Program-made: the position numbers and the translations under genes
Origin: a virus
Lineage: Duplodnaviria; Heunggongvirae; Uroviricota; Caudoviricetes
DNA: 4,363 nt
Reading direction: 5' to 3' (one strand)
Virus record (IMG/VR): IMGVR_UViG_2711768013_000017
Shown: piece by piece, positions 1-322 of the stretch
How positions within the stretch are numbered: position 1 is the stretch's first letter
Layout: every line of letters starts with the position of its first letter
The notes under the pieces: generated by a model
The model's input: only the letters and a program-made list of their open reading frames with translations
Database searches by the model: none
Told to the model about the DNA's origin: nothing

Positions 1-322
1 ACACGGTCAGGAACGGGCGCTGAATAATGCTCTTTCCGCTCTGCCATCACTTCAGCATCCGGACGTTCGCCAATTTTCGCCTCCCACGTCTCACCGAGCG
101 TGGTGTTTACGAAGGTTTTACGTTTTCCCGTATCCCCTTTCGTTTTCATCCAGTCTTTGACAATCTATCCCAGCAGATACGGGATATCGACATTTCTGCA
201 CCATTCCGGCGGGTATAGGTTTTATTGATGGCCTCATCCACACGCAGCAGCGTCTGTTCATCGTCGTGGCGGCCCATAATAATCTGCCGATCAATCAGCC
301 AGCTTTCCTCACCCGGCCCCCA
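1..322 (-). repeat. Chimeric partial copy of terminase large subunit gene A. 1..166 matches 1319..1484 (5 mismatches) and 167..322 matches 1102..1257 (2 mismatches). Same orientation as the intact gene, segment order permuted, junction out of frame.
   Basis: Direct base-by-base comparison within the window. The minus-strand translation of 167..322 gives [13 protein letters not shown]...SISRICWD, identical to the gpA residues encoded at 1102..1257. At the 166/167 junction the frame shifts by one and reads RLSKTG then stop. Confidence 0.85.

What the first reader, a model, noticed from the sequence alone, without database searches (positions are those of the whole stretch)
1..322. All seven mismatches between the A-gene copies and the intact A gene are synonymous third-position changes
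The copies differ from 1319..1484 at 5 sites and from 1102..1257 at 2 sites. Placed in the gpA reading frame, every one is a silent third-codon-position change (Gly ggt/ggc, Ile atc/att, Glu gaa/gag, Thr aca/acg, Val gtg/gta, and two more leaving the peptide WGPGEESW...ICWD identical). That pattern comes from purifying selection on a functional gene, not from sequencing error or random decay. The left-end block therefore most likely derives from a second, diverged terminase-A allele (another lambdoid prophage or a mixed phage population) that has been recombined or mis-joined into this locus.
Basis: seen in the sequence. Interest (0 to 1): 0.5.

Follow-up and report, generated by a model that had tools for sequence, protein, structure and literature searches.

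The report
Leftover terminase-gene fragments at scaffold end
The 322-base block is two out-of-order pieces of an ordinary second version of a lambda-type prophage terminase gene, sitting beside an assembly gap, so it is most likely a draft-assembly leftover and not a real gene duplication.

Summary
Block 1-322 consists of two copies of gpA gene segments: 1-166 matches 1319-1484 and 166-322 matches 1101-1257. All 7 differences are synonymous third-position transitions (chance about 2e-5 to 5e-4).

The seven-variant haplotype is a real natural allele. It matches many complete E. coli genomes and some phages exactly, and is 1 base from phage lambda.

The right part of the window (1754-4363, including an IS2 junction found only in Shigella sonnei and a variant cosN) is identical to six S. 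sonnei-type relatives. All 24-25 differences from those relatives lie in 404-1753, inside the "intact" gene. At the seven sites the relatives carry the left-block haplotype. So the block is the allele expected at this locus, and the intact gene carries a foreign tract.

The block's two pieces are in swapped order and joined out of frame with a 1-base overlap. They sit at a scaffold end beside an 81-N gap. That junction occurs in no other genome searched.

Best reading: two alleles were present in the sequenced DNA and the block is a mis-scaffolded leftover (about 0.65). A real rearrangement cannot be excluded without the reads (about 0.2). The finding is ordinary and of low interest.

The parts
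1..166 (-). Copy of gpA gene positions 1013-1178 (codons 338-393), equal to window 1319-1484. It runs off the scaffold's left end.
   Evidence: It has 5 synonymous differences from the intact gene. It is 100% identical to L013-15, L022, L027, L030 and to lambda.
166..322 (-). Copy of gpA gene positions 1240-1396 (codons 414-466), equal to window 1101-1257. It is cut by the N run.
   Evidence: It has 2 synonymous differences from the intact gene. It is 100% identical to L013-15, L022, L027 and L030, and 1 base from lambda.
165..167 (.). Non-native junction ...1484|1101..., in head-to-tail (permuted) order. One base is shared in register, the implied unit is 383 nt, and the join is out of frame.
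   Evidence: The 25-mer across it is absent from genome contigs, viral contigs and metagenome contigs. A 36-mer across it has no match in 5,426 complete E. coli genomes.
323..403 (.). Run of 81 N, most likely a scaffold gap of estimated size. It hides the last 11 codons of gpW and whatever follows.
   Evidence: In relatives the sequence here is the gpW 3' end followed by the portal gene B, not gpA.
404..574 (-). gpW codons 1-57, truncated by the gap.
571..2496 (-). Intact gpA terminase large subunit, 641 aa.
   Evidence: The exact protein occurs in 31 blocks of the collection with Pfam PF05876 and PF20454.
404..1753 (.). Tract carrying all 24-25 differences from the S. sonnei-type relatives. 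This is the foreign allele, and it contains the two segments the block duplicates.
   Evidence: It tiles as L004-type 404-1197 plus L016-type 1079-1632. The tract as a whole is at best 99.2% identical to anything in complete E. coli genomes, phage records or the fetched loci.
1754..4363 (.). Part identical (0 mismatches in 2,610 nt) to S. sonnei-type relatives L013 and L015. L014 has one mismatch, at 3239.
2471..3016 (-). Nu1 terminase small subunit.
   Evidence: PF07471 at the same position in relatives.
4275..4363 (.). End of an IS2 element. The scaffold stops 89 nt into it, which marks the record as a short-read draft that breaks at repeats.
   Evidence: The junction-spanning ORF 4152-4361 is annotated only in Shigella sonnei, on 341 contigs.

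Best explanation
The record is a short-read draft scaffold of a defective lambda-like prophage of Shigella sonnei type. The sequenced DNA held two versions of the gpA-gpW region. One is the resident S. sonnei version. The other differs by about 2%, almost only at silent sites, and comes either from a second lambdoid prophage in the same cell or from a second strain in the sample. The long contig (404-4363) follows the resident prophage from IS2 through cos, Nu1 and the 5' third of gpA. From about 1753 leftwards it follows the other version. This may be a true recombinant or a path switch in the assembly graph. Reads of the resident version that no longer fitted gave a 322-nt contig: two gpA pieces in swapped order, joined out of frame. 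The scaffolder attached it across an estimated 81-nt gap. On this reading the block is not a functional element and not a local gene duplication. The seven silent differences are ordinary allelic divergence under purifying selection. Shown: the two haplotypes, their distribution among relatives, and the non-native junction. Inferred: how the block came to be assembled and scaffolded there.
For: (1) All 7 mismatches are silent third-position transitions, which is improbable by chance and typical of gpA alleles. (2) The block haplotype is a common natural allele: 1014 E. coli records match at 99% or better, all 30 listed hits are 100% and in normal gene order spanning 384 nt, two phages match at 100% and lambda at 99.7%. 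(3) The IS2 junction ORF is S. sonnei-specific. Six assemblies of that lineage (L013, L014, L015, L022, L027, L030) are identical or nearly identical to each other. They match the window with at most one mismatch wherever they cover 1754-4363, differ from it at 24-25 sites all inside 404-1753, and carry the block's states at all 7 sites. By my arithmetic the chance that 24 differences all fall in 1350 of 3960 nt is about 6e-12. (4) In every relative, gpW is followed by portal gene B, not by gpA fragments. (5) The junction at 166 is found nowhere else. It breaks the reading frame, and the ORF across it is not on record. (6) The record shows draft-assembly signs: an 81-N run, a 322-nt piece at the scaffold end, and a right end that stops 89 nt into IS2 at exactly the base where sister contig L030 also stops. 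(7) Genomes with several gpA copies are common: 4,689 places in 3,316 genomes, up to 5 per genome.
Against: No reads and no source assembly could be examined (searches failed to identify it). The presence of two alleles in the read set is therefore inferred, not observed. By my own reasoning, the block's ends (1101, 1257+, 1319, 1484) do not coincide with unitig ends expected from the two haplotypes for any single k. A 1-base overlap cannot arise from a k-mer graph alone. The junction therefore needs a chimeric molecule or a gap-closing step, or it is real. A scaffolder normally needs several read pairs to link two contigs, which would favour real adjacency. No IMG/VR contig from the five S. 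sonnei-type genomes represented there (L019, L022, L025, L027, L030) carries the second haplotype. No donor of the 404-1753 tract was found.
Confidence: 0.65

Rival explanations
1. The block is physically present. During exchange between the resident prophage and an incoming lambdoid phage, or through a microhomology-independent tandem duplication of 383 bp in a gpA copy, fragments of the resident allele were left as a scrambled pseudogene next to gpW, replacing the start of portal gene B.
For: The piece order (...1484|1101...) is what a head-to-tail duplication junction looks like. The scaffolder did link the block to gpW. The block boundaries are not explained by simple k-mer graph behaviour (own reasoning). 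The 404-1753 tract shows that an exchange with another allele is at least plausible. Shigella genomes are rich in rearrangements, with IS elements around this locus.
Against: It requires two novel junctions within about 400 nt, neither associated with an IS. The junction has only 1 nt of homology and is out of frame. It is absent from thousands of genomes, including all relatives. Relatives have an intact W-B junction. The block lies exactly at a scaffold end beside a gap.
Confidence: 0.2
2. The sample was a mixture: contamination or index bleed-through from other S. sonnei isolates, or a metagenome. The main strain truly carries the recombinant gpA, and the block comes from low-coverage reads of the standard S. 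sonnei allele. This is a sub-case of the best explanation in which the second allele is not in the same cell.
For: S. sonnei relatives are identical to each other here, so contaminating reads would be visible only inside the 404-1753 tract. That is exactly where the block maps. A fragmentary 322-nt contig suggests low coverage. No IMG/VR contig from the five S. sonnei-type genomes represented there carries the second haplotype.
Against: Not testable without coverage data. It does not explain the permuted junction better than the alternatives do.
Confidence: 0.1
3. The block is a recent local duplication of the adjacent intact gene, and the 7 differences are sequencing errors or random decay.
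For: The block is 97-99% identical to the intact gene and lies within 1.3 kb of it.
Against: 7/7 silent third-position transitions has P = 2e-5 to 5e-4 under random change. The exact seven-site haplotype recurs at 100% in many independent genomes, which errors cannot produce.
Confidence: 0.02

Closest known systems
Lambda gpA (terminase large subunit, Pfam PF05876 GpA_ATPase + PF20454 GpA_nuclease) alleles of lambdoid prophages of E. coli and Shigella
   Same: The block is nucleotide-identical to gpA codons 338-393 and 414-466 of many prophages and differs from phage lambda by one base. Divergence between alleles is almost all silent.
   Different: The block is not a gene. It consists of two non-adjacent fragments in reversed order, out of frame, without start or stop, and covering 322 of 1,926 nt.
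Repeat-variant leftovers and mis-scaffolded short contigs in short-read draft assemblies of genomes with several lambdoid prophages
   Same: It is a short piece at a scaffold end next to an N run and near-identical to an internal region of the same scaffold. The other scaffold end lies inside an IS element. The junction is unique to this record.
   Different: The internal 1-base junction is not what a k-mer graph produces by itself. No reads are available to confirm.
Mosaic recombination or gene-conversion tracts between lambdoid prophages
   Same: The 404-1753 tract carries 24 SNPs against an otherwise identical clonal background. Its sub-tracts match known alleles exactly.
   Different: It cannot be shown that the tract and the flanks lie on one molecule. 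The donor was not found.
Microhomology-mediated tandem duplication
   Same: The junction order is head-to-tail (end of unit joined to start of unit), with an implied unit of 383 nt.
   Different: Only 1 nt of homology lies in register. The flanking full copies are not present. The neighbouring intact gene is a different allele, so this is not a duplication of it.

Membership tests
Lambda-type terminase large subunit gene (gpA) | Sequence homology to gpA | tested here: met
   The block is 100% identical to gpA segments in many genomes and 99.7% identical to lambda A.
Lambda-type terminase large subunit gene (gpA) | Continuous reading frame covering the ATPase and nuclease domains, with start and stop | tested here: not met
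   The block covers only codons 338-393 and 414-466, in swapped order, with a frame shift at the junction (ICWD|RLSKTG*). The intact copy at 571-2496 does meet this feature.
Second natural gpA allele (as opposed to errors in a copy) | Differences follow the pattern of selection on the coding sequence | tested here: met
   7/7 differences are silent third-position changes. P = 2e-5 to 5e-4 under random change.
Second natural gpA allele (as opposed to errors in a copy) | The same multi-site haplotype is found independently elsewhere | tested here: met
   There are 100% matches in E. coli chromosomes, in phages Turner and phiSTEC1575-Stx2k, and in S. sonnei-type loci.
Second natural gpA allele (as opposed to errors in a copy) | A second full-length copy with this haplotype is present in the same source genome or reads | not testable with these tools
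   The source assembly could not be identified.
Assembly or scaffolding artefact | Location at a contig or scaffold end, next to a gap, in a draft that breaks at repeats | tested here: met
   The block is 1-322, N run 323-403, and the right end lies 89 nt inside IS2.
Assembly or scaffolding artefact | The arrangement is absent from related genomes | tested here: met
   The junction is absent from three collections and from 5,426 complete E. coli genomes. Relatives have W followed by B.
Assembly or scaffolding artefact | No or only aberrant read support for the junction and for the link across the gap | not testable with these tools
   No reads are available.
Tandem duplication | Head-to-tail junction flanked by two full copies of the unit of the same allele | tested here: not met
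   The junction order fits, but the full copies are not present. The only neighbouring copy is another allele, differing at 7 of the 322 compared bases.

The most novel reading that the evidence does not exclude
The block is a real physical footprint of a recombination event in which an incoming lambdoid phage replaced the gpA-3'/gpW tract of a defective S. sonnei prophage. Scrambled fragments of the displaced resident allele would then have been retained next to the exchange site.
Probability: 0.1. Interest if true: 0.3.

Novelty: not a real feature. Interest (0 to 1): 0.1.

Why it matters
It matters little biologically. Silent divergence between terminase alleles of lambdoid prophages, and their mosaic exchange, are well known. 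The practical value is as a quality flag. This scaffold should not be read as carrying a gpA duplication. Its 'intact' gpA may be a hybrid of two prophage copies, so it should not be used for typing or recombination inference without the reads. If the 404-1753 tract is real, it would record one import of foreign phage DNA into an otherwise clonal Shigella sonnei prophage.

Tried and rejected
(1) I searched for the junction elsewhere. The 25-mer was absent from genome contigs, viral contigs and metagenome contigs. A 70-mer query in complete E. coli genomes gave only two-piece, normal-order matches among the rows listed, and a 36-mer gave none.

(2) I tried to identify the source record by exact protein look-ups. 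The gpA protein occurs in 31 blocks, but none of the 10 places shown is identical in DNA. The junction ORF, the ORF across the N run and candidate partial products of the block are not on record.

(3) I looked for a donor of the 404-1753 tract. The best match is 99.2% in complete E. coli genomes, in phage records including Stx1a-converting phages, and among the 102 fetched loci.

(4) I looked for co-residence of both haplotypes in the S. sonnei-type IMG genomes. No genome id is shared between the two lists except for two non-S. sonnei contigs that carry both markers on one contig.

(5) I tried to explain the block's ends as k-mer-graph unitig ends of two haplotypes. No single k fits (own reasoning). 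The right end, 89 nt into IS2, would suggest k of about 90, which predicts different ends.

(6) I considered that the N run might be a mask over collinear gpA sequence. I rejected this because continuing the gpA copy through the gap does not meet the gpW sequence at 404.

(7) The Rfam scan of the window gave no hits. A paper search for the relatives' accession numbers gave none.

(8) Sequencing error or random decay was rejected on the statistics and on the recurrence of the haplotype.

Full report
What is in the window. The minus strand carries the left end of a lambda-type prophage:
- Nu1 at 2471-3016.
- gpA, intact at 641 aa, at 571-2496.
- gpW, starting at 574 and cut after codon 57 by a run of 81 N at 323-403.
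To the right lie the cos region, a YnfO/DUF3950-like ORF (3405-3638) and a DUF1398 ORF (3681-4106). From 4275 to the end there are the first 89 nt of an IS2 element. Left of the N run lies the block in question, 1-322.

Check of the observation. The repeat finder pairs 1-166 with 1319-1484 (97%) and 166-322 with 1101-1257 (99%). A script finds exactly 5 + 2 mismatches. In the gpA frame all are silent third-position changes (Gly370, Ile369, Glu366, Thr364, Val357, Asp433, Asp424), and all are transitions.
- Only 21.7% of possible substitutions in these positions are silent. Seven out of seven therefore has P = 2e-5 for random substitutions, 3e-4 for random transitions and 5e-4 for third position alone.
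- The pattern is what natural gpA alleles show. Of the 37 differences between the window's gpA and lambda gpA, 34 are third-position. Of 194 variable sites among 45 distinct alleles plus the window's own gene, 154 are third-position.

Anatomy the finding did not mention. The two pieces are in the opposite order to the gene: the copy of 1319-1484 comes first and the copy of 1101-1257 second. They share a single base, position 166. The implied unit is 383 nt, so the frame breaks (...ICWD then RLSKTG-stop). The block runs off the scaffold's left end. In every related locus examined, gpW is followed by portal gene B, not by gpA sequence.

Is the seven-variant haplotype a real allele? Yes.
- The block matches 3,331 E. 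coli records, 1,014 of them at 99% or better. All 30 listed hits are 100%, always as two pieces in normal gene order spanning 384 nt inside an annotated terminase gene.
- In the phage collection, phages Turner and phiSTEC1575-Stx2k match at 100% and lambda itself at 99.7%. The one difference from lambda is at gene position 1272.
- Genomes with several gpA copies are common: 4,689 places in 3,316 genomes, up to 5 per genome.

Which allele belongs here? The ORF 4152-4361 spans the prophage/IS2 junction. That exact protein is on 341 contigs and is named only from Shigella sonnei. No complete RefSeq E. coli genome has the junction in one piece. Six assemblies with this junction, or with the same variant cosN, were compared: L013, L014, L015, L022, L027 and L030.
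- They are identical or nearly identical to each other; L030 has 0 differences from L013 over 4,103 nt.
- Against them the window has at most one mismatch wherever they cover 1754-4363 (0 of 2,610 nt against L013 and L015), and 24-25 mismatches that all lie in 404-1753. By my arithmetic the chance of that clustering is about 6e-12.
- Seven of those mismatches are exactly the seven sites of the finding, and at all seven the relatives carry the block's bases.
So the block is the allele expected at this locus. The 3' two-thirds of the 'intact' gpA plus gpW is the deviant stretch.

That stretch tiles exactly onto known alleles: 404-1197 as in L004, L005, L007 and L017, and 1079-1632 as in L016. 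As a whole it is not found above 99.2% identity in 5,426 complete E. coli genomes, in phage records or in the fetched loci.

Is the block's arrangement found anywhere? No. The 25-mer across position 166 is absent from 185,579 species-representative genomes, from IMG/VR and from JGI metagenomes. A 36-mer across it has no match in the complete E. coli genomes. The 63-aa ORF across it is not on record.

Interpretation. Two gpA-gpW alleles must have been present in the DNA that was sequenced.
- The record has the marks of a short-read draft scaffold. It has an N run of odd length, consistent with an estimated gap. It has a 322-nt terminal piece. Its right end stops inside IS2 at exactly the base where sister contig L030 also stops.
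- The simplest account is that the block is a leftover contig of the resident allele, attached by the scaffolder. The long contig follows the other allele from about 1753 leftwards. That may be a true recombinant or a path switch in a shared stretch.
- The other allele may come from a second lambdoid prophage in the same cell or from a second strain in the sample.

I rate this at about 0.65, not higher, for four reasons:
- No reads could be examined.
- The block's ends do not fit unitig ends for any single k (own reasoning).
- A 1-base junction cannot come from a k-mer graph alone, so it needs a chimeric molecule or a gap-closing step, or it is real.
- Scaffolders normally need several linking pairs.

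A real scrambled gpA pseudogene next to gpW remains possible (about 0.2). Examples would be a footprint of an exchange with an incoming phage, or a 383-bp head-to-tail duplication in a second copy. Sequencing error or decay of a local duplicate is rejected.

Comparison with what is known. The block belongs by sequence to lambda gpA but fails the test of being a gene, because it has no continuous frame. It fails the test for a tandem duplication of the neighbouring gene, because it is a different allele and lacks flanking full copies. It meets all testable criteria for an assembly leftover. Silent divergence and mosaic exchange among lambdoid terminase genes are ordinary. Nothing here is new in kind.

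Verdict. The block most likely is not a real genomic feature. Interest is low.

Noticed in passing
window 3194-3205 (cosN): The 12-base cohesive-end sequence reads CGCCTTCCGCCC on the + strand, where lambda and most relatives read AGGTCGCCGCCC. That gives GGGCGGAAGGCG instead of GGGCGGCGACCT, with 5 of 12 bases different. The variant is shared with the S. sonnei-type loci L013-15 and occurs in 14 IMG/VR contigs, including more distant prophages (L021, L023, L026, L029, L031). It is absent from the species-representative genomes. It may mean a non-cleavable cos, or a terminase/cos pair with altered specificity.
   Followed up: partly
window 404-1753: All 24-25 differences from otherwise identical S. 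sonnei relatives cluster in this 1.35-kb tract. The tract is a mosaic of two known E. coli gpA haplotypes: 404-1197 is L004-type and 1079-1632 is L016-type. No database sequence matches the whole tract above 99.2%. It is either a genuine import into a clonal lineage or a chimeric contig.
   Followed up: yes
window 4275-4363 and ORF 4152-4361: The scaffold ends 89 nt into IS2. The 69-aa ORF that runs from prophage DNA into the IS2 end is annotated as a hypothetical protein on 341 Shigella sonnei contigs, and one UniRef entry calls it 'Arginyl-tRNA synthetase'. It is almost certainly a spurious ORF created by the insertion. It serves as a lineage marker.
   Followed up: partly
window 401-406 (gpW codons 57-58, at the gap edge); loci L093-L102: A 57-aa gpW is widespread. 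In many E. coli prophages codon 58 is TAG instead of CAG, a natural nonsense variant (L093-L100). Contigs of two unrelated assemblies (L101, L102) end within 2 nt of the point where this window's contig ends. That suggests a recurrent assembly break or polymorphic fork at gpW codon 58.
   Followed up: partly
window 3041-3097: A 26-nt inverted repeat (85% complementary, 5-nt spacer) lies upstream of Nu1. It is the counterpart of lambda positions about 100-170 in the cosB region, which holds the Nu1-binding repeats according to established knowledge of lambda. It is a known feature and has a few substitutions relative to lambda.
   Followed up: no
window 571-2496: The 641-aa gpA protein of this window is encoded, residue for residue, by clearly different DNA alleles (98-99% identical) in at least 31 blocks of public assemblies. 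Some of these (L004, L005, L007) carry the left-block haplotype. This illustrates how strongly silent the variation in this gene is.
   Followed up: yes
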